The notes under the pieces are model-generated. The model saw only the letters and a program-made list of their open reading frames with translations, made no database searches and had not been told where the DNA came from. A stretch of DNA of 60,393 bases, counting the filler, from Dugesia japonica (taxonomy: Eukaryota): NCBI GenBank assembly GCA_001938525.1. It is 5 parts of 5 records of this genome, joined end to end, with 100 filler letters (N's around TTAATTAATTAA, not from the genome) between each part and the next. Parts side by side here need not be neighbours in the genome. Positions count along the whole stretch, not along the records: positions 33,401 to 42,295 come from MQRL01571313.1; 4 more parts are not named here. One strand, given 5' to 3'. Position 1 is the first letter of the stretch. Each line of letters opens with the position of its first letter. Shown piece after piece: positions 18,832 through 60,393 of this stretch. The translations under genes and the position numbers were made by a program.

Positions 18832-18996
18832 TTAGGCTTCTTCCTCTATGTCTGCATTAAAGCTCAATGGGAAGTAAGTTTCGTCGGGATGTTCTACTAA
18901 TTCGGGAAATAACAAGTGGCCGATGAGTTGCCGGATGCGAGCACGTTTTTGCTGATTCAATATTACTCGTAGAACATTTATTAATTCACCTGGCAT
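18832..18996 (-). CDS. 54-aa unknown protein (MPGELINVLRVILNQQKRARIRQLIGHLLFPELVEHPDETYFPLSFNADIEEEA), small-ORF cassette member
   Basis: Intact ORF below the track cut-off, preceded by ttttcatttAG|aatATG. Clear protein-level homolog at 38359-38544 (LR.IL.Q.K..R..QLI.H.LF..LV.HPDET). Confidence 0.6.
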   Translation of the reverse strand: MPGELINVLRVILNQQKRARIRQLIGHLLFPELVEHPDETYFPLSFNADIEEEA

Positions 18997-21836: not shown

Positions 21837-21852
21837 TGATGGCAGCGGTAAA
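21837..21852 (+). promoter_or_regulatory. Primer-binding site, tRNA-Leu-like
   Basis: TGATGGCAGCGGT directly after the LTR, resembling TGGTGGCAGCGGT (complement of a tRNA-Leu 3' end). Confidence 0.65.
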
Positions 21853-22199: not shown

Positions 22200-22802
22200 G
22201 TTAAAATTAACTTGTATTTATGCCTTTATGTTTGATTACCTCTTGGATTCTTCTTGACATGCTTGAATAAAGATGTTTAATTTTAAATACCGGAATCATC
22301 ACCCAGTGGTCCTCCAAATTCCTACAAAGTGTCTCAATATTAATCGGCCTATAGCTAACAACCCTGGCTTTAAATCTGCCCACAGTGGCTCAATTATATT
22401 CAGATCTGGTGATTGCGTCTGCCAATCACTGAGCACACATAACTTTTGATTTTTCCAAAAAGGATGACACCAACCTTGATTTATGACATGGAGATCCGTC
22501 CTGCTGAAATATATTTTCTGCCTCATATATTAGCAACAACCCTTTATTTAATACGTTCATACAGGCAACATAATTCATCCAATCCGGACACCTTATAAAA
22601 ACTCTAGTGCCATCTTCTTTGATTGCGCCCCAAACCATCAAACTCTTACCTCTGAATTTCACAGTTTTCGTGGTATATTTGGATTTTCCTTTGATATACG
22701 AATAAGTGATCTTTTCAGATCTTAGTGTATTTTCGGCTTTCAACCACATTTAAATAAATTTCCCAATGTTTTATATTGTTTCGTCTTGAGTATAGCATGC
22801 CT
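22200..22802 (-). mobile_element. Tc1-like DD34E transposase remnant nested between the gypsy LTRs
   Basis: TVKFRGKSLMVWGAI...IFQQDGSPCHKS / DWQTQSPDLNIIEPLW. Confidence 0.9.
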
Positions 22803-23129
22803 NNNNNNNNNNNNNNNNNNNNNNNNNNNNNNNNNNNNNNNNNNNNNNNNNNNNNNNNNNNNNNNNNNNNNNNNNNNNNNNNNNNNNNNNNNNNNNNNNN
22901 NNNNNNNNNNNNNNNNNNNNNNNNNNNNNNNNNNNNNNNNNNNNNNNNNNNNNNNNNNNNNNNNNNGTAAATATAGTTTTTACTTAAAAAATTAATGAAT
23001 ACTTTAAAATAGTTTATATATTTAAATAATATCAAAATTTAAAAATACGCCATATTATAACAAATGTATTTTAATAATTATACAATAATTATTTGTAATA
23101 ATTTTTTAATGAATAATGATAACAGTATC

Positions 23130-25203
23130 ATCAGGAAGTGTAATTCTCAATGAAATACGCCATTAATCTGCGTTTCGAAAAAGAAAACATAGAATATACG
23201 ATTATACTTAGACTTTAGACAGCTCAATGCAATAACAGAAAGACAAGCTTTTCCTATGTCAAATGCGAACGAAATGGAAAGATTCTCAAGAGAAAACGGC
23301 CTTTTCGACCAAACAATGGCAATTTTGTTTCAATAGAATGCATTTTAGAATTGCGGCAGCACCAGTTACGTTCCAAGAAATGATGAATAAAGTAATCGGG
23401 AAAATAAAAGAAGCGATGATTTATGTAGACAATATTCTCATATTTATCGAAAAAAAGGAACGACATTATGAAATAATCAATAAGGTATTGACAGAAATTA
23501 AGAATGCTGGTCTAAAACTTAATCCAGAGAAATGCCAATTCATGCGAAAGATGATCATATTTTTGTTACATGTTATCAGAAAAAAGGTGTCAAAACAGAG
23601 ACAACTAAAAAAGAAGCAATTAAGAACTTTGGTAAACCAAAATGCGTTAACAAGATGAGAAACCTTTTGGAAATTTGTAATTACTATAGCAAGTTTATTA
23701 AAGATTTTTCAAAAAAATCTAGATTGCTGGAACAACTGTGTAATGAGCCAAATAACAAGAAAACGGAATAGGCAAATGAATTGGAAGAATATTTTAATGG
23801 AATAAAACAAGCACTAATGATGTCTCTAATATTATGTTTTCCAGATATAAATAGTAGATTTATTATGGAAACGTATGGGAGTTTTCAAACGCAGTACTAT
23901 CTTAAATAGAAAACAATGGACAAAAAAGAGTAATTGCGTATGGATCACACGCAATGACGATTCATGAGAAAGAATATTGTACTACGTGGAAAGAATTACT
24001 CACAGTTTACTACTTTTGTATTTTTTTCAAAAAATATTTGTATGGGAAGGGATTTATCCTCAGAACAGACCCTAAAGCCATCACTTTAATGCTAAATACC
24101 AAGAAACCGATTGTATCAAAGTTTCAAACTTGAATTAATAATTCGAGCTGTTTAGATAAAAAAAATTGGAATATAGAAAAGGATCGCTTCATACAAATGC
24201 GGATATGTTGTCAAGGAGTAAATACGATTAATGTGCACAATGTAAAATGTCAGATGAAGATTCCAAGAGTAGAAAATTCAAAACAAAGATATTAAATATA
24301 GTAGATATTCAAGAGAAACATGAAAATTGTGGGAAAAATGATGAAGGAACATGGATGCCAGATGATAAAGCAGAAGATGTTATATGCTGAAGCAGAAAAA
24401 GTTGCAGCGTATATGAAGCATAAATATAACGCAAAACATTTGTGAAGCAAAATACAAGAAGTTGTCCGAATCTGTATAACAAGCTAGAAAGCTAAAGTGT
24501 TAACATAAACACGAAGGAAGAAACGAAAAAGACACAGCCAACCGAAATGTTTGAGTTGTTATTTATAGATGTGTGTGGATCACTGCAGGAGACAAGTTTT
24601 CGAAAAAGAATTGTTCTCGGTATAATATATCAATGCAGTAAGTATTTAGCCTTGATTGTAATTAAAAAACAAGCGGAAGATACCACAAGGAAGGCAATAA
24701 TGGAGAAGTGGATATTAAAGTTCGGGTGTCCGAGAGAAATTAAAGTTGATTGTAGAAGAGTATTTAAGTCTAATACAATTAAAGATTTTGCATGCAATTA
24801 CTCTCAGGTTTTCGATTCCATATCATCACAAATGGACAAATCAAGAGACATTTTAGATCTATGCAAGACATTGCCGGAGATAGAATTTACCTTGAATGCT
24901 ACAAAACAGAAAACCATTAGGAAAAACCCTGCCGAAATTGTATTTGGAGAGAGAATCAGCAGAGAAAAATGGTACGAAACAAATACTCTAAGAAAGCACA
25001 AAGAACAAGATAAAGAGATATTGACCAAAAGAAAATTCAAGGTTGGTGATGAGGTCTTAGTGAAAGTTGAAACAAGATCATTATGATGTAACCTATAAGA
25101 TCAAAAGAAAGGTTCACGACAGACGTTACATCCTTGAAGATACAAACGGAAAAAACATCGAAAGAAATATAGAGAATATCAAAGAATTTCTTAAAAAGAG
25201 GGA
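23130..25203 (+). mobile_element. Ty3/gypsy pol pseudogene (RT, RNase H, integrase) with polypurine tract
   Basis: KTAFST..QFCFNRMHF..APVTFQ..YVDNILI (YxDD-like), RNase H VIAYGSHAM..EKxYC..KELL, integrase FELLFIDVCG..KFGCPREI..D. PPT AAAAAGAGGGA before the 3' LTR. Confidence 0.92.
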
Positions 25204-25576
25204 TGTGAGTATGTTTTGAAAAGCGAGTTGAAATTTTTGTGTGATTGGTGATCCTTTTACTTAAAATCTTTTATTTAGAAAAATGTAAATTATAGATGAA
25301 AAATTTAATTAACGAATATTTGGTTTTGAATTTAATAATAAATTGAAATTTTGGATGAACGAATATTTTGTTTTAAATTTTAATAATAAAGTAAAATTTT
25401 TAAATAAATTAAAATAAATTTTAAATAATTTGAAAAATGATAACTAATTAAAACATGAGATTTTAATTTGTTTGAATAAACAAATAGAGTTAGTTAGTTT
25501 TAGTTTGTGAATAAATTTTCTATGCAATCAAGTTTTGATATTAATGATCCGATAAGTACTTCAAACTCATCTGACA
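25204..25576 (+). mobile_element. Ty3/gypsy LTR (3' position)
   Basis: Direct repeat of 21461-21836, TGT...ACA, preceded by the PPT. Confidence 0.92.
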
Positions 25577-32832: not shown

Positions 32833-34246
32833 CTGTAAAATTATTTACTAATTAGTAACATTTAAAAAAAATTTAAAAAATAAGTTTTTAATAATTACAG
32901 GGTAATTTTGGAACTTTTAATTTTGAGGGGGCATTTTTGGAAATACCCCTTAACTAGTTTAATAAATTTTTTCATATTTCGGATTGGTTTAATATACAGA
33001 TTTCATCCATGCATTCACACATGAGCATTTATTTATTTACATATTTATTTTTAAACCATTCTTTAAATTATTTTTTCTAAATTTAATTTTATTTAATTTA
33101 TAATCTTTATAATATTAACACTAAAAATAAAATAAAATTCCAATTTTGAATTAAATCTAAATATTACATGATTTAATATTTTCTTGAAAAAACCTAAAAT
33201 CGAAAATCTATTGTGAATGGTAGTGAATATCAAGATAATAAAAATAATAACAGTTCACCCATAACTCTGGAATTTCCTACAAAAGAAATATCTATTTTGA
33301 NNNNNNNNNNNNNNNNNNNNNNNNNNNNNNNNNNNNNNNNNNNNTTAATTAATTAANNNNNNNNNNNNNNNNNNNNNNNNNNNNNNNNNNNNNNNNNNNN
33401 GATAAATATGGATACGAATAAAATTAATTACAGATTGTATTTCTGAATTTTTGATTATAGCAGGAGTTAATAATGATTAATGACGTTTAATTATTAAACG
33501 AGAGCCGGATAGAAATTGGGACCTAAGACGGGATTCAGCATAGTCCCGCTGAATTCCGGGAAATGGGGTATCGTGTTACTAGAAAGAGTAACGCAAATTT
33601 CTGTTGTTGTTAGGTATTCCCCAGACCGAAATTATATCTATCAGAACGAAAATGGTGATCAGAAGAATGGTAATAAAACTCAGGAGATCGAGTATAAACC
33701 AACATAAAAAAGTCTAGCGACCCAACATACCTATAACTACCCATGTTAATTAATTTATTGAATCTCACCAAATTCACATTTGATTTAACTTAACTGAAGA
33801 TTCAAAACGTTTAGCTCAAACTGTTGAAATTTCACCCGGATTTTATCAATTTTCCATGATTACAATTTCGCAATGTTTTCGATTTAACTTTATTTTAATG
33901 TGTAATAATTTATTAAATTTTAAGATTACAATTTTGAAGTTTTAATTTATTTGAATTTTATTTATTTTNNNNNNNNNNNNNNNNNNNNNNNNNNNNNNNN
34001 NNNNNNNNNNNNNNNNNNTAAAATTTGAATTACTTTTTTTATTTTACTTATGCTTTAAATTACTTGAAATTGGAATGAATACTTGTGACATGATTATATT
34101 TAAAGAAAATCTATTATTTATTTAAGATTTAAACCATCCAAAAATTATTCATTTAATGAAAACCATGAATGAAATTTTAATTTAATTTTTTTAAGAAGTG
34201 AAATGAAGACAAATCAAAACGTGTTAACTTCATTTGATTATTTAAA

Positions 34247-35635: not shown

Positions 35636-35778
35636 TGGTTATTACCCACCTACAGATAATATATTTACGAACTAATTGAAATTTGAATTTTATAATTTCT
35701 TAATTACATGCCTCAGTCTAATTTAATTCCAATCTCAATTAGTCGTTTATTACGAAACTTTATATCAAAATTAATTAG

Positions 35779-35811
<33 letters not shown>

Positions 35812-36800: not shown

Positions 36801-38358
36801 TATCATGAATTCATATTTAAACATGAAAAAACGAAAATCATAAATGAATTTTTTTAAAGTAATAGAATTATCAATTTTGTCAGAATGGTCATTTAAATCA
36901 TGATACTGGTAGTGTACTTATAATCCTGGTTCCTGCGAAATAAAATACCTTTGAACGCTGTGTGTTCACCGATAGGAAAATCTGCCGCACAGAGTTGATA
37001 AACCAGAATTTATATCCAAATTTTTCTAGCAGTAATAGCTTAAATATTGAACTACGGCTGTAATTATAAGTTACTACCAAATGATGAGCCAACTGGTGTT
37101 ATTGATTCAATTATCTGATAATAGATACGACCCATTTGTTTAAGACATTTTAAACCAGAAACGTGGAAAATATCATCGTTAAACGTTAATCAAACAGTTT
37201 TGTGAATCACATTATACAAGAGAACTATCACGAAATTTCCACAACTGATGAAGACGTAATTCTAGATCACTGAGTAAATTTGCCGCATTTGACATTTGGT
37301 GAGTTAATAACAGATTACTGCTGTGAATTAGCTAATTTTCTACAGCAGACATACCGTAATAACTTTAGGATTTATCAACAGACCCACTATCAGTATGTTG
37401 TCAATAATAACCTCGATATTTCATGATGAGTCTACACAACTGTTTTGCACATAACTAACTCCGTCTGCCCCAATTCCTGTGTATTTCATCGATCTTCACT
37501 TTTAATTTAGATGACTAATTTTATGGGTTTTGCCGATAAATGATAATTCTGAGATTCGGTGAACATAATTTGCCAAATACCGGGATTACTATTGAATCTA
37601 GGGACACGAAGTTTTGGGCATTAAATTTTAGTATGAGAGACATCCTATTTAGATCAGAACATTTGTAAAACTTAAAAACTCAATCATTGGAATCTCTAAG
37701 ATTCAGTTGGAATTTAAGAAAATATAGTTCCGGGTCGTTCTGTGCTGAGTATCGATATCCACGTGAATTTTTTGTTGATTATTTCATCGGATTTGCAGAG
37801 TTAACATTTTTGTGATCATACATAAATCTAGATTTTAGGTGTTCTTGTATTAGTCACCTGCTACGATGGTGCTACCTTTTATTAATTTAGTTGTATCAAG
37901 TTAGATACATTGAGTCTAACCATAACCATTATTAATCATTATCTCTCCTTGTATATTTAACCTTAACATTATCGTTATTATTATTCTTATCATTATTATT
38001 ATTATTATTATTAGACTATCCCTATTATCACTACTAGTAATGCTATCATTATTATTATTATTAGTTTTATTATTATTGTTCTTGTTATTACATCCAGTAT
38101 TACCATTATTATTACTATGATCATAGTCATTATTATCACCATTATCAAAATAAATATTCTCACCATTAATCCTACTGTTATATCATTGTTTCAACCACCA
38201 ATAATTTTGGGGGTTACATTTAGTGCAAGAATATCGTTTACAAGATTAATAGAAAGAAGAGATAGAAAGTTTTTTTGTTACGGGGTTCGTAATTACGGCA
38301 CCGTATGTAATTGCTAGCATAAGTTGGGTTAACATTTGTTATATTTCTCATTTAGGTT

Positions 38359-38544
38359 ATGCCTGCCTAGTTAAAAACCACCCTGCGGTTAATTTTAAAG
38401 CAGCGCAAAGCCGTACGTCGCAAACAATTAATCGATCATATATTATTTTCCGCACTAGTTAAACACCCTGACGAAACTGACTTACAGTGTTTCGTCGAGA
38501 TGTTCCCATCAAGCTGCCACGTAGATATCGATAAGGAGTTGTAA
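38359..38544 (+). pseudogene. Homolog of the 54-aa cassette ORF (one early in-frame stop)
   Basis: ctcatttAG|gttATG CCT GCC TAG..; MPA*LKTTLRLILKQRKAVRRKQLIDHILFSALVKHPDETD...DIDKEL*; AATAAA at ~38609. Confidence 0.65.
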
Positions 38545-38676
38545 TGGATTTGAGTTCAAAATCACTCTGTATTATAACTCCTTTTCCTCATATAATGTTA
38601 ATTTGTTAAATAAAAACTTTGAACTTGTTTTATTTCATAATTTCATATTTTAAATGTTGGGGTAATTTTTCTTTGA

Positions 38677-38946
38677 ATGAACCATAAATGGGAAGTAATC
38701 CATAACTGGGTTACTGGCCGGATGCTGTTTAAGAAATATACAAATCCTTTTAATCGAGATGCGGTCGTTCTGATAGAACGAGCCAACTTGCCAGCTAGCG
38801 TCGCATACGAGGAGCGACACATGGACTCAACGGCTTGTCAAGCATATTATAACTGGACTGGCCCTGATCACAGTCGCGTCACCTTTTCTGTAAGAATGGT
38901 ATCCACAGACTATGTAAACGGGAGGTCGGTCATGCAACGAGAGTGA
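38677..38946 (+). CDS. 89-aa unknown protein within the small-ORF cassette
   Basis: GC-richer open frame between two cassette genes; AATAAA at ~39132. No homolog elsewhere in the window. Confidence 0.4.
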   Translation: MNHKWEVIHNWVTGRMLFKKYTNPFNRDAVVLIERANLPASVAYEERHMDSTACQAYYNWTGPDHSRVTFSVRMVSTDYVNGRSVMQRE

Positions 38947-39307
38947 AGAGAGAACACCCCTCCTTCACCCGAGCCTGTCCTCACCCTTATCGGTATAGGT
39001 GGATTAATCAGTGACACACTCTGAAGTGTTCGAAACACAGAAAGTGAGGGAAGTGAGGAAAATATCGAGCCCCCCACGGAGAGTGTAACTCATTTATGAA
39101 TAATGTCTTATATGATTTTGTGTTGAGTACTAATAAAATGTTTTTGTATTACATGAAAAATTTCTAACTCCTTTTTGGTTTCCTTTGTGATAGCTGATTT
39201 ATGTTCGACATAAGTTGATTACTCATGATAAACTCTGTCTAACGTTATTAATGACTGATTGATAAATTAACTTTCCTGTTTAATGTATTCTTCACTCAAT
39301 CGTTCAG

Positions 39308-39591
39308 TGGCCCCGACAAAGAAAGTAAGTGAAATCAGTAATGATACCGAAATGTCATGGGAGCTCTATCGTCTTGCTAAACGTCACTAGGAGGCTGACA
39401 CTGCTACAGCAGAAAGTAAGGTCAAGCGTTATAAAAATAAATGTATTGAATTTCGTAAGGAAGCCGAACCCCCACACGCACAGGAACTGCTTTAGAAAAA
39501 TAAGCTGGTCAACGATATAATGGATTTGAGGAAAGCTATGCCACTTGAGCCGTTAATGATAGATAAGAGTACACAAACATCACGGCCATGA
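39308..39591 (+). pseudogene. Helical/coiled-coil cassette protein ending in DKSTQTSRP (two in-frame stops)
   Basis: cgttcAG|TG GCC CCG..; (M)APTKKV...KRYKNKCIEFRKEAE...NKLVNDIMDLRKAMPLEPLMIDKSTQTSRP*. Homolog at 58363-58582. Confidence 0.65.
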
Positions 39592-39752
39592 TCTCCTACG
39601 TTTCTCTTTTGTTAGATTGTAAATAAAATTCTTCTTGAGTTTGAACTGATTTGTTTTCCATTCGTTTACGTTTACCGTATAAATATTTTTAGTTAATTAA
39701 ATTTTAATAGTGATCTGACTATTTTCTATTCTAATTGTTACTATTTGTTTAG

Positions 39753-40088
39753 TGCCCCGAATTCAGTTGCCCACCAGCTTACGTAGATGCCATCGCCTCA
39801 TACAAAAACTTCTTTTAGAAAGGCACATTAAGCGGCAAAACGAGAGAGCATTGTTACGACATCTGACCCAGAGAAATCGCCTTATTAAAAAACTAAATGT
39901 TATAGCTAAAAAACAGGGCGAACTAGCAGATCACACGAAGCAGGTACTCGTACACAAAATAGAATTCCTACAACAATATATATCTGATCTGGCAAAACCG
40001 TCTAGAACAAGAAACATGGATTTGCTGGAATAGCGAAGATGATGAAGCCGCTTTTGTTTTCATGTCTGGAGAGCCTACCCAGTGGTTA
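39753..40088 (+). CDS. Basic coiled-coil cassette protein (MPRIQLPTSLRRCHRL...), 3' end frameshifted relative to the 58715 copy
   Basis: ORF 39752..40033 is strongly similar to 58715..59080. Both start at ctaat..tttgtttAG|TG CC and share the GAGCCTACCCAGTGG (EPTQW) end. Confidence 0.65.
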
Positions 40089-40809
40089 GACCCGGGTGCT
40101 CTATAATTTATGTGACTAATTAAAATAAATTTTATTAATAGTATATTGTTAATTTATTTGGTAAATGAAAATAAGGGGAAAATAACGAACCCGAAATAAA
40201 CGTACACGAGTGAGCACATCAAGTAAGTCATGGAAGTCAACCGCTCTGTACCGATAACCTAATTAGGGATATTAGGTAAATTTTTAGGTAAAATCAACTA
40301 CTGAATTTTGTAATAAATTTATGTAATAAACGACTATTCATCACTGTATTTTTATCAAATAATTGAAATTGGAATTAAATTAGCTTCAGAAAATTAATTT
40401 CGTATTTCGAATAATTTAAAAAGCTATATTATTATGGTTATTTTTATTTATTTTAATAACATGTATTATTATCTTGTGAAAACTTGCTAATGTGATAAGA
40501 AATACTTAAACGTTTTACAAGAAATTTCATAAATTTTTCAAATAAATATCATAAATTCATATTTTGTTACTCCTCAGACTTTTAATTTGAAACAAAATTC
40601 AACCAATTAACACTGAGAAATAATTAAAATAATTTACATGAATGATTGAAATTTAAATTTAATATTATTATTTTTTTAACTTTCCAATTATATGGCAAAA
40701 TATACATTTTAAATATGTTAAATAAGTGAAATGAAAGTACTTTAACTAATTGAAATTCAATTAATTCAAAGATAAACCGGTAATAAATATTAAATAAATC
40801 AATTAAAGT

Positions 40810-41280: not shown

Positions 41281-42529
41281 AAAGTCATACAAATGTACGA
41301 ACTTTTCATTAAATAATACAGAAAATTATTGAGAACTTCATACAGCTATACAAAGATTAATCAATCTCATTAAACCATGATAATTACAAATTTATATATC
41401 CAATAATTTCATACAAATATAACCAACTTTCATACAAAGTTAGAATTATTTCATTATCATACAACAAATTTCGATAGGTATTGTACAAGTAAAATAAATT
41501 TTCAACATGGAAAAATAACAAATAGTGAAAATAATAAACTATACTTAATGGTCAAAGTAAACTAACGACCTCAGTAAGCCAATTTGCATAATAAGTCAGT
41601 TAATACAGTTAGTCAATAGATACTGTAAATCGATAGGAAGAGTAACCCAATGGGTTTTCAAAANNNNNNNNNNNNNNNNNNNNNNNNNNNNNNNNNNNNN
41701 NNNNNNNNNNNNNNNNNNNNNNNNNNNNNNNNNNNNNNNNNNNNNNNNNNNNNNNNNNNNNNNNNNNNNNNNACTATGAACTTTTTACAAGTATATAACG
41801 TTGTAGTATTTTAGAACTTACTAACTAATACAAATGAAATGACCCCAAAACTCGTACTATTATTGATCCTTAATTAATACATCTTTTTAATCCAAATTTG
41901 TACATTTATAATTGTAAATAATAGTAACACATTAATGAAAATAAATTAACATAATAAAAACGTTCAAAATTTTCATCAGTGAAAATATAGAAAAAATAAA
42001 ATAAAAAAAACATAAATAAAATAAATAAATAAAAAAAAAATTTAAATAATAAAAAGTCATTTAAAATCAAATTAACTATAATAACGCGCTAAGATACATC
42101 ACCCCAGTGAAAAACAACAACAGTAGCAGAAAGAAGGAAAACATAGAGTGGGTAATGCTATCCAAAGTACATGTATCATTGGGAAATGATGACTCATGTG
42201 TTATTCAAACTTCTTATATGGTTGGTTAATGGGTATTATATACTATGTACATATATGCGCGCGCGCACACACACATATAAATATATATATATATANNNNN
42301 NNNNNNNNNNNNNNNNNNNNNNNNNNNNNNNNNNNNNNNTTAATTAATTAANNNNNNNNNNNNNNNNNNNNNNNNNNNNNNNNNNNNNNNNNNNNTTATA
42401 CAAACATCATTAAATGGAGAAAAAATTATTTTTATTGAAATTATTTAATTAAGTGATTTTCATATTATTTATAAATATAATTATAAAAATGATAATAATA
42501 GTTATAATAATAATAATGATAATAATAAT

Positions 42530-43880: not shown

Positions 43881-44981
43881 CTATTTGCTTCGTTTTCTTG
43901 CTGTCCATACCAAGCATGTTGTGTCCCATGAGCAAGTAGCTATCGCTACTCCGTCTGGGCTAATTTTTACACCACTAACCCTGCCATCATGGGCTGATAA
44001 CAAACCTATTCTTTCTTCCCTCAAAAGATCCCACACATGACAAATAAAATCATCATATCCTGCAATAAGAATTCTACCTGATTTTGAAAGTGCTAGACTT
44101 GTGCTGCCACTTTTTATGTAATCATCAGTATAAATAGCAATACATTGATCAGATCGAATGTCCCAAAGCCTACAAGCTTTATCATCTGAAGCACTAACAA
44201 ATCCATATGATGCTTCAGGGAAAAATGAAATTCCATTTACATCTTGTTCATGGCCAACAAACACTTGAACATATCTGTTTGGTATTCGGACATCCCACAA
44301 ACGGCATGTTTTATCAGCGGAAGCAGTAACAAACATATTTGTATCTTTCTTATTAATATCTAAACAAGTAACATCATTTTCATGCCCCAAATACGATGAT
44401 AACATTTTATTAGTTTCTAAATTCCATAAACCACAACTTTTATCTCCTGAAGCACTGATTATAGAATCATCATTCTGAAATCGACAAGATGAAATGTAGC
44501 CATCATGGCCTACCAATTCACAACATGGCGCTTCTGGCCCTGCAACAGTTTGTAAATCGAAAATGCTGATAACATTATCTAGTCCACCACTNNNNNNNNN
44601 NNNNNNNNNNNNNNNNNNNNNNNNNNNNNNNNNNNNNNNNNNNNNNNNNNNNNNNNNNNNNNNNNNNNNNNNNNNNNNNNNNNNNNNNNNNNNNNNNNNN
44701 NNNNNNTGAGAAGCAGTTACGAGTAGTTGACTATCTGAAGCCCAATCCAAGCTTGTTACTTTGGACAAATGTGATCTTAATTGTTTGCATACTTTGAATT
44801 TAAGTCTCCCAAGTTCTTTAACGTGTTCTGTCATTTGGAAAAAATCTGTATCTTGAACTTCTTGTCTAACTGAATCAAGACGTTCTTTTATAATTTCGAT
44901 TTCATCAATCAATTTGAGCTCTTCAGGACACATGTCCTCTAAATTGTCATCAACACCAAGATTAACTATAGTTTTATCCAT
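43881..44981 (-). CDS. Heterotrimeric G-protein beta subunit, divergent, apparently intronless
   Basis: N-terminal coiled coil plus WD40 repeats with G-beta motifs (LRSHLSKV..W..DS.LLVTAS; GGLDN..SI; GHDGYISSCRF; SGD..CxLW; GHEQDVN; SDD..CRLWDIRSD; SKSGR.L.AGYDDF; HDGRVS; CSWD). The N gap length (~39 codons) matches the missing protein segment. Confidence 0.95.
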   Translation of the reverse strand: MDKTIVNLGVDDNLEDMCPEELKLIDEIEIIKERLDSVRQEVQDTDFFQMTEHVKELGRLKFKVCKQLRSHLSKVTSLDWASDSQLLVTASXXXXXXXXXXXXXXXXXXXXXXXXXXXXXXXXXXXXXXXSGGLDNVISIFDLQTVAGPEAPCCELVGHDGYISSCRFQNDDSIISASGDKSCGLWNLETNKMLSSYLGHENDVTCLDINKKDTNMFVTASADKTCRLWDVRIPNRYVQVFVGHEQDVNGISFFPEASYGFVSASDDKACRLWDIRSDQCIAIYTDDYIKSGSTSLALSKSGRILIAGYDDFICHVWDLLREERIGLLSAHDGRVSGVKISPDGVAIATCSWDTTCLVWTARKRSK

Positions 44982-48879: not shown

Positions 48880-51155
48880 TGGATTAGGAACGATAAATGT
48901 AATGAAATGAGTAAAGTGAGAGAAAAGGTTTACAAATTCCCGAAAAGGGAAAGTTTCAATGAGGCAGAAGTTAACAAAGCAGAAGGGATAGGAACAATTG
49001 AGGAAAAATAATGTAGAAAGTTTGTATAAGATGCAAGGGAGACCTATCATTTATGTGATGATCAAAGGTGAACAGTTTGATTATTTGTTAGATACGGGAT
49101 CACGAAAAAATGTAATGAGCATGAAAAGATTTAGTAGACTCGGAGAAATAATGTTAGAGAAAAGTGAGGAAAGATTGCATTGCGCGAATAACAGCTCATT
49201 GGAGACTATTAGAAAGATACTTGTGAAAGTTGTCGTTTCAGAGGTGTGCAAGGAAGTAATATTTATAAAAATAGAAAAACTAATACCGCATCGAATTAGT
49301 GGAGTGGAATTTGAACATACTTTTGGGTATCATCTGCAAAAAAGGGCAGGGTAAACATCAATAGTCAACGAGAAATTTTTTTTGCAACATCGAGGCAAAA
49401 TTTGGAATACAGATACAGATGGACAGACAATTGAGACTTGCGATGGAGATTCTAGAAGTTAACAAAGATCATAGATGGACTCCGATTATTCAGAATAATA
49501 AGGATGTATTTATGGTGGGAAAATGGGACATTGGATGCACAAACTTAACAAAGCATCGAATAATCACTAAAAAAGGTCCAATCAACATAAAACTTTATCG
49601 TCAACCAATGAATCTAGAAGAGAAGATTGAAGAGGCCATCAAGAATCTGTATGATAACGGTATCATCGGGAAGTGTAACTCTCAATGGAATACACTATTA
49701 ATCTGCGTTTGGAAAAAGGAAAAAAAGGATATACAATTATGCTTAAAGTTTATACAGAAAGACAAACTTTTCCTATGCCAAATGTGGGCGAAAAGCTAGA
49801 TGCTTTGGAAAGTACCCAGTATTTTAGCTTAAAAGACTTGAGAAATGCATATGAAATAGTCAATAAAGTATTAAAAGAAATTAAGAATGCCAGTCTAAAG
49901 ATTAATCCGGAGANTTTTCAATTCTTTCGAAACGAGATCAAATGTTTGTTACAGTTATCACTAAAGAATATTTCAAAACAGATCCAACTGAAATAGAAGC
50001 AATTAAGAACTTCGGTAAAACCAAAATTCGTTAAGAAAATGAGAAGCTTTCTGGAAATTTGCATAATCTATCACAAATTCATTAAAGATTATTCAAAAAA
50101 GCTAGATTGCTGGAACAACTGTGTAGTTGACCGAGTAACAAGAAGATTAAATGGTTGAACGAGTTAGAAGAAGTTTTTAATGAAACGAAAGAAGCACTAA
50201 TGATATTTCCAATATTATTTTTCCAGATATCAATAAAGAATTTATATTAGACACAGATGCGAGTTTCGACACGACTGNTGCAGTACTGTTTCAAAGAAAC
50301 AATAATGGACAAGAAAGAGTAATTGCATATGGATCACACGCAATGACAAGTCATGAGAAAGGATATTGTACTACGTGGAAAGAATTACTCGCAATTTACT
50401 ACTTTTGTATTCATTTCAAACATTACATATATGGGAAGAGATTTATTTTTAAAACAGATCATAAAGCTATCACTTTTATGCTAAATATAACGCGAAACAT
50501 TTGTGGAGCAAAGTACAAGAGGTTGTCCGAAGCTGGATAACGTGCGAGAAAGCTAAAGTGTTGACAACAAAAACAAAGGAAGAAACAGAAATTACACAGC
50601 CAGTTGACATTTTGTAGTTGTTATTTATAGATGTGTGTGGACTATTGCAGGAGACAAGAGGTCAAAAAATATACGTTCTCCGTATAATAAATCAATACAG
50701 TAAGTATGTAGCCTTGATAGCAATGGTAAGACAATATGAAGATACCATACGAAAGACAATAATGAAGAAATGGATATTAAATTTCGGGTGTCCGAGAGAA
50801 ATTTGAGTTGATTCTAGAAAAGCATTTAAGTCTAAACCAATGAAATATTTTGCACCTGAACATGGAATTACCCTCAGGCTTTTGAGTCCATATCATCATA
50901 ACACAAATAGACAAATCGAGACACAGTTTATCGAGATATGATAAATGCGACAATTACAGAAAGGAAAACCTCAGATTGGGCTGATGTATTGCCAGAGATA
51001 GAATTTACCCTGAATGCTACAAAACAGAACACCACCGAGAAAAGCCCTACTGAAATCGTATTTGGGAAGAGAATAAGCAGAGAAAAATTCTACGAAACAG
51101 ATACTTAAAAAGTGCACAAATAGCGAGATAAAGTGATACTAACCAAAAGTCAATT
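48880..51155 (+). mobile_element. Ty3/gypsy pol pseudogene (protease, deleted RT, RNase H, integrase)
   Basis: YLLDTGS protease, WDIGCTNL.KHRI.T..PI, FILDTDAS RNase H, EKGYCTT.KELLAI, integrase LFIDVCG..FGCPREI, PYHHNTN.QIE. Same family as 23130-25203. Confidence 0.92.
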
Positions 51156-51348
51156 TCCACAGAAGATAAATTCAAAAATTTGGAAAAAATAAAAAACGTT
51201 TTTTGGAAAAGTTTTTGTTATTTTAATAAAAATTTTAAAAAGAAACATNNNNNNNNNNNNNNNNNNNNNNNNNNNNNNNNNNNNNNNNNNNNTTAATTAA
51301 TTAANNNNNNNNNNNNNNNNNNNNNNNNNNNNNNNNNNNNNNNNNNNN

Positions 51349-51463
51349 AATTACATCATAGATAAACGATCAAATAACCGATAATCGCACTAATTACGTA
51401 AAGGGGGTGGGGGAGGGTTCTACTGAATGTGTGCGTGGTTACGTGCGCTACTATCTATCTACT
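51349..51463 (+). mobile_element. Polinton-like right terminus inserted into a pPolB gene
   Basis: G-rich tract then ATGTGTGCGTGGTTACGTGCGCTACTATCTATCTACT; the pPolB coding sequence starts abruptly right after it. Confidence 0.65.
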
Positions 51464-53631
51464 AATAGAAAAAAGAAAATAAATACATTAACATCAGAAC
51501 AAGAAATATCGTTCAGATCAGCAAAAATCTGTAATATATGTAAAAATGAATTAAAAGATCCTGTTCGTGATCATGATCACTTTACAGGAAATTTTATCGG
51601 AGCTGCATGTAATAATNNNNNNNNNNNNNNNNNNNNNNNNNNNNNNNNNNNNNNNNNNNNNNNNNNNNNNNNNNNNNNNNNNNNNNATCATATTTTGAAG
51701 TATGGTATCAATAAATTTCCAAGTTGGAACATATCATGTATACCAACCACGTGTGAAAAAATCTTACGTTTAATCGTTCATCTGAGTAAAACAACAATCA
51801 GATTTATAGACTCCTATCAGTTTATAAATTCGTCCTTAGATGCAGCAGTGAAGTCATTAAAAGAGATCTTTGGCGACACAAGAATTTAAAGATGAAAAGT
51901 TAACAAAGTCAAAAGGTATTTTCCCGTATAATTTTGCAACAAGCTTAGATGGTCTCAAAGAAGCAACAAGTATGCCTCCAAAATGGCCAGAAATTAGTCA
52001 GAAAGAGTATGGTAAAGCTATAGAAATGTGGCAAATAACTGGTTGTAAAAATCTATTAGACTAAATATGCTAGTTTATTTAAAGTTAGATGTTTACTTGT
52101 TAGCCGACGTCTTTCGGCAGTTTCGAGCAAAATCAACAGCGCATAATAGTTTGGAACCATTAACATTCTTTGGTATACCTGGAATGAGTTGGGCATCTGC
52201 CTTGATGTCGTTAAATGAGCCAATAGAACTGTTAGCAGATAATGATATGACAACCTTTTTTGAAGGTGGAATAAGAGGCGGTTTAACTTTTGTTAATAAG
52301 CATTATGTAGAGACTGATGAAAACACTGAGCTCCTATACATAGACATTAACAATCTTTATAGATAGGCGTTAAGTCAGAAGCTTCCTTATAAAAATTTTG
52401 AATGGGTCTATTCTGGATTTGATAAAATTTTAGAAGAATGTGAGGAATCTGACCTGGACTCATTGTCATATGGATATTCATTAGACGTTGACATGATTAT
52501 TCCCGAGAAAATTCAAGAGCGATTAAATGATTTCCCAGTTGCGGCAGAGCATCAATGCGCTCCCGGAAGAAACGTTAAGAAATTAATGTTAACTCATTAT
52601 CCAAAGAAGAACTACATTATTCATCAGAGGTTGTTACAAATGTATATCCAGTTAGGTGTTGATGTGACAAAGGTACACAGAGGTGTTAAATTTGTACAGG
52701 CATCGATTTTCGAGAATCATATTAATGTCAATACAGATTTGAGATCGAAATGCGAAACAGAGTTGGAGAAAAATTTCTACAAGTTATTAAACAACAGTCT
52801 ATATGGTAAAACTGTAGAGAATTTAAAAAAGATGATAAATCTACGTTTATGCAATACGAAAAAAAACTTGTTACATATACATCAAAAGCTGGATTTTAAA
52901 GATCAATAAAAATTGATAAGGACTTAATAGCTGTTTTGTTGAATAAAGAAGTGGTTTGCTTAGATCGAACAAGTTATATTGGACAAACGGTTCTTGATTT
53001 AAGTAAACTAAGAATGTATCAACTTCAATATAATCAGTTGCAGAANNNNNNNNNNNNNNNNNNNNNNNNNNNNNNNNNNNNNNNNNNNGACACTGACAGC
53101 TTTTTCCTTGAAGTCAAAAATATTAAGTTAGAAAAACTAACTGGATTGATGGTTGAAGATCAGTTGTTAGATACTTCAAATTATGAAAAAAGTTATCCTC
53201 TTTTCAATGATAATTTAAATTCAGTTATTGGAAAATTTAAAGATGAAAGTAAATTCCACAAATATATAGAATGGATTTGCTTGAGACCGAAATGTTATAG
53301 TCTTCTAAGTGAACAAGTTTCGATGAAGGCTAAAGGTATTACTTTAAAAAACACTGGTCTCACTCATCAATCGTATATTGAATGTTATGAAAAAGATAAA
53401 TCAGTTTTAGTAGATCAATTTTTGATGGCATCAAAAGAACATCAATTATATAGTATAAAATGTAGGAAAATGGCTTTATCAAACAAAGATGATAAAAGAG
53501 TATGGACTGACAAAAATTTAAGTTATCCATACGGATATTACAAATTATCCAAAAATCTTTCTGAAATTGATGAAGGCAATAGTTACAGTATAAACACGAA
53601 AGAAAATTCAGGAAGACAGATATTTTTTTAA
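51464..53631 (+). pseudogene. Polinton/Maverick (adintovirus-like) protein-primed family B DNA polymerase with EndoVII/HNH-like domain; 5'-truncated, frameshifted
   Basis: CNIC..VRDHDHFTG.FIGAACN, RFIDSYQF..SL, KGIFPY, YLKLDVYLLADVF, GIRGG, LLYIDINNLY, YKLLNNSLYGK, DTDS, IGKFKDE, LRPKCYS, KAKG, DDKR. Confidence 0.95.
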
Positions 53632-54699
53632 ATACATCTTGTTTTTCAAAGTTGAATTATTTTCTTATTTAGTTTTTATGTATAGTTATCTATATTTTTA
53701 ACTTTTTATTTAATTCGTGAATATTAAAAATATTCTCAAGAACAGCNNNNNNNNNNNNNNNNNNNNNNNNNNNNNNNNNNNNNNNNNNNNNNNNNNTAAG
53801 TATTTGTTTCTCTAATTTAATTTTAAATGTTTAATAAATTAATTTAAAATAAAATCAATGCACCCTTATTTCACCCAACTCAATGCATTAGAAAAAACCA
53901 AACTAAATGCAAGTGTTCCAGTGTTTACGTATCTACATACTATTATCTTAACATAAAAATGTATAGTAGGTAAATACTTAAACACTGGAACAGTGCATTT
54001 AGTTGGTATTTTTTTAAAACAACCAAAAAAGGTTGAAGAAGAAAAAATTTGAACCACAAAAAATAAAACCACAAAACATTTGAAGAACTAAAAATTAAAG
54101 AACAAAACCCCCCCTCGACCAGACAGTGTTCCAGTGAGAAGTACTAAGATTGTACTAAGACTTAAAAAGTCGGATTTTTATGGATATGTGAATAATATTA
54201 TTTTATTTGTTTAAGGAAATTTTAGAAAATTCATAACACAGATGCAATTCAAGTACAATTCAAGTACAAATAATATCAATTTTAATGAAATCTCAAATCC
54301 AATCAATGGTTAAGTCCAGCCATTATTCTCACAATAATTGTAATTATTAAATTTAAATATTTAATTTTCAAATAATGGACTATACGAATTTAACACGCCG
54401 CGATAAACAAAGCCATTTTGCAGGCTAGAAAATAATCCCCAGGTTTAACCATGTCCTGATTCTGGCAGCGTAAAGCTGTCGAAGTAAACAAAAGTGAAGA
54501 AATAAGAAGGCGCAAATAAATGGGGGTTACGTTTGGGAACCATAATTGAAATTTTCCACATCACACCATCTAGATCTACTCACATTGAATCTCTTCAATC
54601 TCAAGAGTGCCAGCCGGTCCATTGTAGAAACTCCAATTCCTACTCGACNNNNNNNNNNNNNNNNNNNNNNNNNNNNNNNNNNNNNNNNNNNNNNNNNNN

Positions 54700-57370
54700 N
54701 NNNNNNNNNNNNCCTGTTTTAGCACTGGTTCATTTTCAACACACTTTAATCCCAAACACCCTACTGAGATAGTCTCAAAGAAAACTTTATTATCTGAATG
54801 TCCTTTTTCAATGTGTGTATTTATTTATGTTCAAGTCTTTAACTAATTTTAAAGTAATGTATTTGTCGGAAGCGGTTTTCACATCCAGTAAGAAAATATA
54901 CTTCTGCTTAACATTTATAAGCTGCAAGTCAACGCGATCAGTCCTATCAACAAGGTCACAGGTTTGATCGACTATAACTTTGAAGTTGTATTAGCTCTAA
55001 CAAACCTAGCAAGCCACTTAAGCACATCATAGTGACAAAAACGTGTGCTTCAGTTCTTAAATTGTAAGAACACTTCCTGCAGGATTTAAAGGGCATACCG
55101 TAATTGCTATCTATAGAAATAGTGTTTGTTCTTGTCTTATGAATAAACCGCATATTCTCAGGTTTTATAAAGCCATCATACAAAGGTTAAGTAGAAAGTA
55201 TGGATACACCAATCGCAGGAGTAAGCGCATCAGTTTTAACCAAACACACTTCCTAATGTGTTTCCAATTTAATAGACCATGAAGCAGTTTAGTCGTCGCT
55301 CTCCGGTCTTCAAATGAAATTAAATAATTTCCTTCACCGATGATATTTATCACCTGCAAGCAAACTTCCAGTTCATTCCTATTAACTTTTACTTGCAGGT
55401 CAAGCTCACGATCTCGATATGCGATTGCATCGTAAATCTTGGACCATCAGCTTTTGAGATTTAATTTGGTGGTATAAAAGGATAGCCAGTTCAGCGCTTC
55501 GTCAATTGAACACAAATTTAAATTTTTCATGTGCTTATTAGCCGCATGAATCAGGTCATGATTAAAACATCTCGTACTATCTCATCTGGGCATAAAAGCA
55601 TTTTGAAAGCTTGTACAAGAGATTTTACAGAATACTTATTTCTAGTAGAGATTAGACCGACCGCCACAATTTTCAGGAGTTATAAAGATAGTCGCAGGGT
55701 GTCAGCACTGGAACATAAAATCTGTTTTATGGATGTACGAATTTGTTTATCAATACTTCAGATTCAGAAAATTGCGACATTTTCAGAGTGGCAACAACAG
55801 TCAAATTCTCTCAACGGAATGTTGAAATTTTGAAATGCGAACGTAAACCTTGAGCGAATAAAAGTTCGGTATGCTTGTATCTTTTGCCAGTGATAAAGAA
55901 CCAAATGTTTTATCTTTTGAAGGTCTCGGACAGATTTTTCAAGAATTTCTGTTGGAGTTTGGAAATTATCACGGTTTAAGTTCACCACTAGGTATCTACA
56001 GAAATCTTAATGGAGGATTTTGAGAGCTGGTTCTCACTTGATTGCTATTTGAGCAGGTTCGCACTTCCTAAGTCAAAATCAAGAAAAGACCAGTCATTAG
56101 ATGTTACCGTGACAACCACTATATCGTGTAAACTAACCTTGGAAGTGGCTACAAGTGCTAAACCATCAGCATATGCCAAAGAAGATATAGAGTGTTCAGT
56201 ACATCTAACACCAGCACCATAGGTTTTGGAAATATCATTAATCATTGGATTGATATCAATGTTAAACAGTAACATAGACAGTGGACAGCTCTATCAAACT
56301 CCTCTTTTATTAGCAATATGATGGGAGGAAATAACATTGCAGATGTAATAGCTGAAACAGTCATAGTTCAGCGCTCTGATTAATCCGGTAGCCTTTACAG
56401 TTAACCACACTTGCGTGAGCAGACCAAGAATATGATCACGGGTGATACTTCCAAAGATGTCAGCTATATCCAAGAAAGCGATATGCAAGTTTAACTTTGT
56501 ATATCCGCTCTGTTCACTAAGCAAGAAACGCAGCAAAAGTTTGTGCTCAGAACACCCTTAAGATTCTCCAGCACTCTTCTGAAGTTTATGTAGTCAACCG
56601 AAATTTTAAGCTCAGCTTGAGAGTTGCAATCCACAACAAGCCATGAATAGCTTGTAGATGCAGTCAAGCAAAGCTATTAGCCTCCAAAATGAAACAAAAT
56701 GATAAGAACCAGCTTTGGATATACCAGCTTTGGTATCATCAGAGTTGAGTATATCCGCCAGATATTTCGAGTCATTCCAGATGCAAAAATTGTCTTAAAA
56801 ACTTTATGTATCAGAACACTGACAGACCATTGAGAGTGTGTTTGAAGCTAGTAGGTTCTGCACTATAAACTCGAAATTATCATCCCCAGATTTCAAAGAC
56901 AGGCAAATATCCCAGTTTGTAACGGGTCCGACAAAAGACTTGGACTGAAAGTAGCTTTTTAAATCAAGATGAAACGGAAAGAAATAGGCCAAAACCTCAT
57001 TAGTATTAAGCTTAAAGACCGCTTTTTGAGAGTAGTAGAACTTATTCCTGATGTTGAGATAAACCTCGACACTCTTAGTTGTCTTTCCCTCATCGATTCT
57101 AAAATTCAAATCTTATGGCTTGATGTAGCCATCAAGCAGGTCTCTAGAAGCCTTAACATCATTACCATCGACATCCCTCACCAAAATTTTAGACTTATTT
57201 TCACGATCCTTTGGATCGATAATGATTTTAACTGAATCTTTGTTGTTTTTTGAGGTTTTATTAGTAATATTAATAAAATTAATTTTATTTTTTGATTTAA
57301 AATTTAAAACTTTAGACTTTAACAAATTAAGATCAACTTTAATTACATTCACAAAATGAGGAATCAAGAA
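54700..57370 (-). mobile_element. NeSL/R5-like RLE non-LTR retrotransposon, degenerate (RT, CCHC, REL)
   Basis: FWRLIALLDCIYKLF, AFLDIADIFGSI, RGV...LSMLLFNIDI, SLAYADGLAL (YADD), WQKIQAYRTFI, RFIHKTRTN..CRKC...EAHV, DRVDLQL..FLLDVKT. ORFs 56804-57400 may be its N-terminal part (less certain). Confidence 0.85.
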
Positions 57371-58039: not shown

Positions 58040-58362
58040 TAACAACAGTACATCAATCAGATTACTCAGACTTTAGGTAGAAATACAAAAGCAATGCTTC
58101 AACAACACGAATGAGAAATCTTGGATATATGCATATTAGACCAAGATTAAGCAGTAGTCGAATGTATGGGTCTTTCAAGATAAGCGAAAACCAACAAAAG
58201 TCATTCGTACTCGAAGCACTTGTTTTACGGTAAAACTGGATATACGGCAACCTTAACTTTGTGACTGGTAGAACGATTACGAGAGTCATTGGGAAACAAC
58301 AATTAAGAAAAAACAACGTGTGACGCTGGTTTATTCTACATCATGACAATGCGATCTCACAT
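58040..58362 (+). mobile_element. Mariner transposase fragment
   Basis: SWIYAY*TKIKQ*SNVWVFQDKRKPTKVIRTRST, FYGKTG, WFILHHDNAISH. Confidence 0.82.
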
Positions 58363-58582
58363 AAATGAAAACAAAAGGAAATGCCTAGCTTTTAAGAAGG
58401 AGGTTGAGGCCTCTAATACCCAAGAAAGAGTCTGGAAGGCGCAAGTAGAATCTTTTGCGGAGATCATCCGGTCCCTCCATGACCGTGAGAATAAACTGGT
58501 GACGGACATTTTACTGCTTCGGAAGGCAATGCCCCTTGAGCTTTTAATGGTCGATAATGGTACCCAGACAACACGACCTTGA
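58363..58582 (+). CDS. 3' part of the coiled-coil cassette protein ending DNGTQTTRP
   Basis: KRKCLAFKKEVEAS..QE..ENKLVTDILLLRKAMPLELLMVDNGTQTTRP*, homologous to 39308-39591. The 5' end is replaced by mariner sequence. Confidence 0.6.
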
Positions 58583-58715
58583 TGTCGGTTATTTTCAAAT
58601 ATCATAAATAAACGATTTTCTTCTCTTAATAAATTCTTTCTTCCTATTTGTCTACTTAATTAATAATTCGTTTAGTTTAAGAGAAATAAATTATCTAATT
58701 GTGCATCTTGTTTAG

Positions 58716-59080
58716 TGCCACGAATTATATTCCCCAACAGTTTAAGATGCTGCCATAGAATAATCCGGCTACTTCTACTAGAACGGCACCACAAACGTCA
58801 GACCGAGCGTGCCTTGCTAAAATACCTTTCTCAACGAAATAAGTTGATTAAGAAGTTAGATATCATCGTGAAAAAGCAGGGAGACCTAGCGGAACAAACA
58901 AAGCAACTCCTCCAAAATAAAATCGACTTTTTAAAAAAATACATAGCGGATCTATCCCGCCAGCTAGGCAACGCGTCGTGGTTACAATGGGACTATAAAG
59001 ATAATAATGTTGCGTTCAATCTTATACCCGAAGATAATACTGCGTTTAATTTTATTCCAGAAGAGCCTACCCAGTGGTAA
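58716..59080 (+). CDS. Basic coiled-coil cassette protein with acidic tail (MPRIIFPNSLRCCHR...EEPTQW), intact
   Basis: 121-aa ORF starting at ctaat..cttgtttAG|TG CCA; homolog at 39753. Confidence 0.65.
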
Positions 59081-60393
59081 GACCCGGGTGCTCTCGATAA
59101 AATGTGATTTATAAAATAATACATATTAATATAAGCATATTGTTTATTTATTTTGTGATTTCAATAATTGGGAAATGAATATGAACCCAAACTAAAGGTG
59201 TACGGGTGTGAACTTCAAATAAGGTTGGAAGTCAACCGCTCTGCACTAAATATCTAAAACAGGGACTTTAGATTTAAATTCTTAAAGGGGATCTCCTGAG
59301 GACCGTTTTTCCCCGGTCAGCGCCCTTCTCAACACCAGCTCAGGTGGAACCCCAACAGTATTTTGTGAAGTACTCCGCTTTAAACTTGAAGAACTAGAGA
59401 ATAACGGATAAGCCAGTCACTGTATATTAAAAAGTTATTCAATAAATTTTTGTGTAATTTTGTGTAATTTAACATTATTTAAAACGTTTTTTATTTAAAT
59501 GTTGAATTCAATAAAAATGTATTTCTTTTCTTTGAGTGTACATTAGTTATTTTCTTAAATTAAATAAGCTCTACTTAGAATCAATTTTTAAAACGAAATC
59601 ACGGGCCTAAACCAGTCTCCGTTTTCAAGACAAAAAAGAAAAAATGACAAAGAATTTTTAACAATTAAAACAAAGGAAACTTAAACAGTATGATTACCAG
59701 AAACACAGAAGAATGACAGTCAGATAATAGAAAAACTGTTTTACACAAGAAAAGTCTTTTTTACAACATAATAACCAACTACTGATTGACGTGTCAAAGA
59801 CTTACACAGACAGTGAAGAGGTCGAATATGCTGTGGAANGAGTATAGATTTCATTTATCACATGAAACTAGTTCTAAAACAACGAAAACTTTAATAAAAA
59901 TATCACGTGATGTTTTAATTCATCTCAGTTTGTTAGTGAATTTTACCTTTTCAAAGCATGAAGACGTAAAGAACAACAGAAATACTTGAAAATCTAAAAT
60001 CAATTTATGAAATTGATATTCTAGCTTACTCGGATTAAAGATTCGAAGCAGAATGAAATATGAAATATCAAAATTCAAAATTCAGGCTCAATCCAGATCC
60101 ACGTATTTATAATCTAATAAAATGAAATAACAAGTCCGTTTATAAAAATTATGCATATGGAATAACAATAAAACTTCATTAAAATGAAAATGGTCTCGAA
60201 ACAAATGTGATGCGAAAACATTGGACATTTTACAAAACATGTAACTTGCATTAGATCTTAAACATAAAGCCTAAACAATAAATAAAATGATAAACAATAA
60301 AATTTTAAAAATAAAAGGTAAAAATTTAACTTTGAAAATGAATTAATAAAAATGGGTTTCTAAGATGGAAATTAGCCTAATTAAAGTTTACAA

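What the first reader, a model, noticed from the sequence alone, without database searches (positions are those of the whole stretch)
39308..39591. Cassette protein ends in a dynein light chain (LC8)-type TQT motif conserved in both copies
Seen: C-termini LMIDKSTQTSRP* (motif at 39562-39579) and LMVDNGTQTTRP* (58553-58570) follow a helical/coiled-coil region. Known: (K/R)xTQT, specifically DKSTQT, is the LC8/DYNLL-binding motif of rabies virus phosphoprotein and of Bim, and LC8 sites often sit next to coiled coils. Inference: the element encodes a factor that recruits host LC8 (dimerisation or transport). That is a virus-like host-interaction module rather than a transposon housekeeping function.
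Basis: partly seen in the sequence, partly recalled or inferred. Interest (0 to 1): 0.7.

Follow-up and report, generated by a model that had tools for sequence, protein, structure and literature searches.

The report
Decayed virus-like gene with LC8 motif
Two broken copies of a small gene from a repeated, virus-like DNA element end in a short tail that looks like a docking site for the host hub protein LC8, probably to clamp the protein into a dimer, but binding is untested and neither copy here can make the protein.

Summary
The motifs are real: DKSTQT at 39562-39579 and DNGTQT at 58553-58570, each three residues before the stop, in a predicted disordered tail after a long heptad helix. Both genes are broken. 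Copy 1 has two in-frame stops and a 17-codon gap before the motif; copy 2 lacks its 5' part. The copies lie on different joined scaffolds. They belong to a multi-copy family of compact orphan genes whose synonymous sites are saturated, so they once coded under selection. One copy shares a scaffold with a Polinton-type DNA polymerase; no capsid, ATPase or integrase was linked. No relative was found outside the host. TQT is no better conserved than its flanks (tail 22 of 30 identical), but the four changes in the 8-residue site all avoid D-4, T-1, Q0 and T+1. Copy 2 misses the (K/R)xTQT consensus. Best reading: a Swallow-like coiled coil plus LC8 site in an accessory protein of a probable Polinton-like endogenous virus, using LC8 as a dimer clamp rather than for transport (about 0.5). 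Binding was not tested. LC8 use by viruses is well known; I found no paper on it for Polintons.

The parts
39307..39591 (+). ORF B, copy 1: coiled-coil protein with LC8-type tail; broken (TAG at 39388 and 39493, 17-codon gap against copy 2)
   Evidence: acceptor-like cag|TG at 39307/39308 and AATAAA at 39622
39562..39579 (+). DKSTQT (site IDKSTQTS, positions -5 to +2)
58361..58582 (+). ORF B, copy 2: open 3' 73 codons; helix 2-56, then unstructured tail; 5' part missing
   Evidence: AATAAA at 58607
58553..58570 (+). DNGTQT (site VDNGTQTT)
38356..38544 (+). ORF A0, about 62 codons, broken; core HPDETDLQCFVEMFP, which resembles an E1A CR2-type stretch (recalled) but is not a strict LxCxE
   Evidence: highest contig depth of the laid stretch at 38458-38534
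38677..39099 (+). ORF A, about 140 codons with two internal stops; orphan; low-confidence all-beta model
   Evidence: AATAAA at 39132
39752..40106 (+). ORF C, copy 1: basic helical protein, frameshifted near 40000
   Evidence: tag|TG acceptor-like start
58715..59095 (+). ORF C, copy 2 (54 of 81 residues identical to copy 1; stop at 59078-59080)
59150..59420 (-). Candidate convergent ORF D, broken in all frames; its 3' part is also at 40150-40282 in copy 1
   Evidence: high contig depth at 39998-40305; reading frame not established
51350..53631 (+). Broken type B DNA polymerase (PF03175) with an endonuclease VII-like stretch; Polinton/adintovirus type; same scaffold as copy 2
   Evidence: E 2.9e-05 and 1.9e-07; PF02945, E 2.3e-04, below cut-off
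54850..57350 (-). Decayed non-LTR retrotransposon between the polymerase and copy 2
   Evidence: RVT_1 E 5.3e-07 at 56100-56599; PD..D endonuclease-like and CCHC-like stretches read by eye
58060..58356 (+). Foreign stretch in place of the 5' part of ORF B copy 2; ends in RWFILHHDNA, like a mariner transposase motif (recalled)
   Evidence: Pfam gave no transposase hit
18835..18996 (-). Third copy of ORF A0
   Evidence: tblastn E 5.4e-13, 48% identity
18664..18780 (.). Terminus-like stretch next to the third A0: short tandem repeats and a C-run/G-run palindrome, at a scaffold edge

Best explanation
ORF B encoded a protein of about 110 residues: a long parallel coiled-coil helix followed by a short disordered tail with one LC8 site. 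An LC8 dimer would bind the tails of two chains as added beta-strands and clamp the helices into a dimer, as for Drosophila Swallow. It is an accessory gene of a multi-copy element, most likely a Polinton/adintovirus-like endogenous DNA virus. Shown: the motif, its position, past coding selection, multi-copy status, and breakage of both copies here. Predicted: the helix, the heptads and the disordered tail. Inferred: LC8 binding (about 0.6), a dimer-clamp role given binding (about 0.8), and Polinton membership (about 0.55, a separate question).
For: Motif and context. D-4, T-1, Q0 and T+1 are kept while -5 (I/V), -3, -2 (S/G) and +2 vary; D at -4, small residues at -2 and V at -5 are favoured in PMC3078936 and PMC6607443. 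By hand, four changes avoiding four key sites of eight is 1 in 70, post hoc. In the tail, 18 of 28 base differences are at third codon positions, pS 0.79 against pN 0.17; ORF C gives pS 0.81 against pN 0.20. The stretch is multi-copy: 2284 contigs of run X1 were laid at 80% or more. RNA reads from diverged copies cover ORF B thinly (X14). Swallow has the same order, coiled coil then LC8 site (PMC3995210). A PF03175 polymerase lies on copy 2's scaffold.
Against: Only two sequences could be aligned. TQT is not above its flanks: the tail is 22 of 30 identical, LRKAMPLE is 8 of 8, and the chance that four given sites all match is 0.23. Copy 2 has N at -3, and neither copy has D/E/P at +2. Only 7 of 19 matrix-predicted peptides bound LC8 in PMC6607443. 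Neither copy here is intact. The variant table showed 40 of 444 rows, none inside the motif, so it says nothing on conservation across copies. About 4.7 kb, two N gaps and a retroelement separate the polymerase from copy 2, and no capsid, ATPase, protease or integrase was tied to either copy.
Confidence: 0.5

Rival explanations
1. The motif is incidental. The tail is conserved as part of another interface (for instance with ORF C or another element protein), and TQT was simply carried along.
For: Flanks are as conserved as the motif (22 of 30; 9 of 28 three-residue windows fully identical). Copy 2 misses the K/R consensus. TQT non-binders are common.
Against: DxxTQT is rare by composition (0.003 per 500 aa), and it sits exactly where LC8 sites are expected, in a disordered tail after a coiled coil. 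The pattern of changes fits LC8 preferences.
Confidence: 0.3
2. The tail binds LC8 in order to link a particle or nucleoprotein to dynein for transport to the nucleus, as proposed for African swine fever virus p54.
For: p54, adenovirus protease, papillomavirus E4 and rabies P are listed LC8 partners (PMC3995210). The element may be a DNA virus.
Against: LC8 binds partners and the dynein intermediate chain in the same grooves, two chains of one protein at a time, which argues against a cargo-adaptor role. Nothing shows that ORF B is a virion protein.
Confidence: 0.1
3. The cassette is not viral. It is an accessory module of a non-viral transposon or a captured host gene family, and the tail could act on host LC8-dependent transposon silencing.
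For: No viral hallmark gene was tied to the cassette, and no viral relative was found. LC8 is needed for piRNA-guided co-transcriptional silencing in Drosophila (PMC7861614 abstract).
Against: The genes are compact, tandem and each followed by AATAAA in copy 1. A PF03175 polymerase is on the same scaffold as copy 2. Panoramix-type silencing is shown only in Drosophila in what I read, and the host here is not identified.
Confidence: 0.1

Closest known systems
Drosophila Swallow (coiled coil followed by one LC8 site)
   Same: Order of parts; linker of similar size (Swallow 17 residues; here the helix ends at residue 56 and Q0 is residue 69); a single TQT-type site.
   Different: No sequence homology found; here the protein is about 110 residues, the site is at the extreme C-terminus, the gene sits in a mobile element, and binding is untested.
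Viral LC8 binders: rabies virus P, African swine fever virus p54, adenovirus protease, papillomavirus E4
   Same: A short linear LC8 motif in a protein of a selfish element. Copy 1 carries DKSTQT; that rabies P and Bim carry this exact hexamer is recalled, not seen in a call.
   Different: No homology to any of them; the genes here are endogenous and decayed.
Polinton/Maverick and adintovirus accessory genes (Oncoid, Adintoc; PMC8502044)
   Same: Small orphan ORFs near a PF03175 polymerase; the neighbour A0 has an LxC-containing acidic stretch like an Oncoid.
   Different: A0 reads LQCFVE, not LxCxE; no hallmark virion or integrase gene was linked; no LC8 site appears in the sections read.

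Membership tests
TQT-anchored LC8/DYNLL clients | TQT anchor at -1/0/+1 with a polar residue (D) at -4 | tested here: met
   both copies (rules)
TQT-anchored LC8/DYNLL clients | K/R or another large residue at -3 | tested here: inconclusive
   K in copy 1, N in copy 2
TQT-anchored LC8/DYNLL clients | D/E/P preferred at +2 | tested here: not met
   S and T; not hydrophobic, so not in the disfavoured class; a preference, not a requirement
TQT-anchored LC8/DYNLL clients | Motif in a disordered segment next to a coiled coil | tested here: met
   prediction only, copy 2: helix 2-56, pLDDT 52 and 45 in the last blocks; heptads
TQT-anchored LC8/DYNLL clients | Motif conserved above its flanks | tested here: inconclusive
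   two sequences; not above flanks; no further homologues obtained
TQT-anchored LC8/DYNLL clients | Measured binding to LC8 | not testable with these tools
   no binding data and no complex model
Polinton/adintovirus | Protein-primed type B polymerase (PF03175) in the same element | tested here: inconclusive
   present on copy 2's scaffold, 4.7 kb away across gaps and insertions; none seen on copy 1's scaffold
Polinton/adintovirus | rve integrase, packaging ATPase, protease, major and minor capsid genes | tested here: inconclusive
   none among the 32 selected stretches scanned against Pfam, apart from rve and aspartyl-protease hits in LTR-retrotransposon-like pieces on other scaffolds; the scaffolds were not scanned whole and are only about 9 kb
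Polinton/adintovirus | Terminal inverted repeats | tested here: inconclusive
   one terminus-like stretch beside the third A0; no paired termini identified
Adintovirus Oncoid | LXCXE followed by a CK2 site | tested here: not met
   A0 copy 1 reads LQCFVE; the third copy lacks these seven residues; other copies not seen

The most novel reading that the evidence does not exclude
A Polinton-like endogenous virus family of this animal carries a row of small host-manipulating genes expressed from a shared leader spliced to alternative acceptors, with the start codon completed at the splice junction (AG|TG). One of them, ORF B, recruits LC8, possibly drawing it away from LC8-dependent piRNA silencing, and its neighbour A0 is an Rb-binding E1A-like protein.
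Probability: 0.12. Interest if true: 0.75.

Novelty: new member of a known kind. Interest (0 to 1): 0.38.

Why it matters
LC8 capture is known for several RNA and DNA viruses. A search of the held library for 'polinton' with 'dynein light chain' found 0 papers, and a search for transposon-encoded LC8 binders listed 4 papers, none on that subject by title or abstract start. If binding holds, it would give a first function to an orphan accessory gene of a Polinton-like element and support a virus-like way of life for the family. It is cheap to test with two natural peptides. The value is limited because the copies are pseudogenes, the motif is short and the element's class is unproven.

Tried and rejected
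No relatives of ORF B: profile against 1.84 billion representatives, 0 hits at E 0.001 (73 profile positions only); word-index search, 0 of 11 candidates (lengths 40-165 only); JGI metagenomes, 0 of 261 pattern matches confirmed; PDB sequences, best E 1.1; ESM Atlas gave generic coiled coils at low recognition; Pfam and PHROGs gave only weak helix-type hits. ORF C: 0 of 52 candidates, 0 of 40 in IMG/VR. A0: none. ORF A: no Atlas hit; model pLDDT 49 with no fold match at E 0.001. Polymerase tail: 0 of 7 in IMG/VR. A conserved DNA word at the end of ORF C: 0 in IMG/VR; its hairpin is not better than shuffles (z -0.89 and -1.40). No whole genome is held. No RNA holder was listed for copy 1; this is no evidence on expression. 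No complex model with LC8 was obtained, so docking is open. Spliced-leader trans-splicing as the source of the start of B and C was considered: a leader ending in AUG (flatworm type, recalled) would be out of frame at AG|TG. An AG|TG at 40344 was first taken as the start of D in copy 1 and dropped, because family depth ends near 40305 and that stretch matches another repeat at 35702-35783. Earlier findings: none for this place or sequence. The host was not identified; 'flatworm' is a guess from composition and recall. No supplements were read; those of PMC8502044 (genome maps, protein sets) could hold similar accessory genes.

Full report
Observation. They are the only two DxxTQT matches in the six frames of the window; TQT alone occurs 10 times and [KR]xTQT 3 times. 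From the composition of the cassette proteins, DxxTQT is expected about 0.003 times in 500 residues, or 0.023 with a looser anchor. This estimate is post hoc, and the two copies are homologous, so they show one origin and one retention.

State of the genes. Neither copy can make the protein. Copy 1 (39307-39591) has in-frame TAG stops at 39388 and 39493 and lacks 17 codons that copy 2 has. Copy 2 is open for its last 73 codons, but its 5' part is replaced by a stretch ending in RWFILHHDNA. That looks like a mariner transposase motif from memory; Pfam did not confirm it. The window is also not one locus. Linkers of 44 N, TTAATTAATTAA and 44 N stand at 18564-18663, 33301-33400, 42296-42395 and 51249-51348, which I read as joins between scaffolds. 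Copy 1 and copy 2 are on different pieces. No whole genome is held. The host is an AT-rich eukaryote with a G-beta gene; it was not identified.

Past coding selection. In the last 31 codons, 18 of 28 differences are at third positions, with pS 0.79 and pN 0.17. ORF C gives pS 0.81 and pN 0.20 over 81 codons. The two copies therefore come from lineages that diverged while the proteins were under selection.

Architecture of ORF B. AlphaFold2 on the 73 open residues of copy 2 (two-row alignment, mean pLDDT 86) gives one helix from 2 to 56 and an unstructured, low-confidence tail. The best heptad register has 62% LIVMF at a/d against 15% elsewhere; the N-terminal part of copy 1 shows no such register (22% against 16%). 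Q0 is residue 69. Drosophila Swallow has the same order, and LC8 raises the melting point of its coiled coil from 15 to 45 C (PMC3995210, passages).

Motif quality. The 8-residue sites are IDKSTQTS and VDNGTQTT. PMC3078936 (passages) gives the consensus [D/S]-K-x-[T/V/I]-Q-[T/V]-[D/E], Kd 5.6 uM for Ac-DKSTQTD and 0.07 uM for Ac-VDKSTQTD, and selection of small residues (Gly, Ala) at -2. PMC6607443 (passages and section 9) favours a polar residue at -4, a large one at -3 and D/E/P at +2, and reports that only 7 of 19 matrix-predicted peptides bound. Copy 1 is thus a strong match and copy 2 a fair one. In favour, the four changes within the site fall at -5, -3, -2 and +2 and spare D-4, T-1, Q0 and T+1 (1 in 70 by hand, post hoc). 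No LC8 complex model was obtained.

The element. Copy 1 lies in a row of small genes: A0 (38356-38544), A (38677-39099), B, C (39752-40106), and a candidate convergent D. AATAAA follows each of the four plus-strand stops in copy 1, but only B of the two in copy 2, and the hexamer occurs 8 times in this 2.2 kb AT-rich stretch. A0, B and C begin at splice-acceptor-like sites. B (copy 1) and C (both copies) begin AG|TG in the phase where an upstream A would complete ATG; 29 of 456 acceptor-like sites in the window are followed by TG. No splice joint onto these sites was among the 15 of 25 joints shown, so this stays an inference. Laying four runs on 38150-40450 at 80% likeness gave 2284 contigs in run X1 over all 30 bins, with peaks on the A0 core and on 39998-40305. 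The family is large and diverse, and the first stop in ORF B is not shared by most laid contigs (22 contigs; 228 of 279 depth). Two RNA runs, each read to about a quarter, gave 64 and 8 reads, all under 95% alike and all only partly laid; some lie on ORF B. They point to weak transcription of other copies, not of this one. The variant table showed 40 of 444 rows and none within the motif, which proves nothing either way.

Is it a virus? Copy 2 shares its 9 kb scaffold with a broken PF03175 polymerase on the same strand. Between them lie two N gaps, a non-LTR retrotransposon (RVT_1) and the mariner-like piece. A third A0 copy at 18835-18996 runs into a C-run/G-run palindrome and short tandem repeats at a scaffold edge. 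A0 carries DLQCFVEMFP before an acidic end, which recalls adenovirus E1A CR2 (from memory) and the adintovirus Oncoids (PMC8502044, sections 7 and 8), but it is not a strict LXCXE. No capsid, ATPase, protease or integrase was tied to the cassette; only selected stretches were scanned. Polinton-related insertions are reported in flatworms (10.1101/2025.04.19.649669, passages; PMC8532177, passages), but the host here is only guessed. The giant Burro retrotransposons (PMC6431247, passages) were considered; nothing here matches their polyprotein layout. I put Polinton-like membership at about 0.55.

Relatives. None was found for ORF B, ORF C, A0 or A. These collections are mostly microbial and the queries were two-row profiles, so the blanks show only that the genes are not widespread there.

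Mechanism. Most likely two ORF B chains pair through the helix and an LC8 dimer binds both tails and locks the pair. Transport is less likely, because partners and the dynein intermediate chain use the same grooves. The main rival is an incidental motif in a tail conserved for another reason. A further possibility is interference with LC8-dependent piRNA silencing, shown for Drosophila (PMC7861614, abstract and outline); nothing here tests it.

Novelty and verdict. LC8-binding viral proteins are a known kind. Searches of the held library found no paper joining 'polinton' and 'dynein light chain', none joining Polintons with splicing, leader and start codon, and no transposon-encoded LC8 binder among 4 listed papers (listing only). 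Interest 0.38.

Noticed in passing
window 18564-18663, 33301-33400, 42296-42395, 51249-51348: Linkers of 44 N + TTAATTAATTAA + 44 N: the window is a join of small scaffolds, so neighbourhood across them means nothing.
   Followed up: yes
window 39307-39309, 39752-39754, 58715-58717, 59418-59420 (-): Several genes of the element begin at an acceptor-like AG|TG, where a leader ending in A would complete the start codon.
   Followed up: partly
window 38463-38540 and 18835-18996: The A0 core HPDETDLQCFVEMFP is by far the deepest part of the laid stretch and resembles an E1A/E7 Rb-binding region; the third copy lacks exactly the seven residues DLQCFVE.
   Followed up: partly
window 40070-40102 and 59062-59094: A 33-base stretch at the end of ORF C is 32 of 33 identical between copies whose synonymous sites are otherwise saturated; its hairpin is not better than shuffles.
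   Followed up: partly
window 53888-54017: Nested inverted repeats (30-base arms, 90% complementary, 19-base loop) just downstream of the polymerase.
   Followed up: no
window 35702-35783 and 40293-40399: Inverted pair of about 80% likeness flanking the cassette of copy 1; appears to be another repeat, not part of the family.
   Followed up: partly
window 43881-44981 (-): Divergent G-protein beta subunit (PF25391, E 7.5e-81) in one open frame with a 115-base N gap.
   Followed up: no
window 54250-54650 (-), 9500-9640, 3020-3170: A further repeated stretch next to the polymerase, with two related copies elsewhere in the window; no Pfam match.
   Followed up: no
window 21460-25576, 48970-51150, 11890-12840: Decayed LTR-retrotransposon-like pieces (protease, RT, rve hits) with an LTR-like direct repeat at 21460-21836 and 25203-25576; a DDE_3-like piece at 22426-22749.
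   Followed up: no
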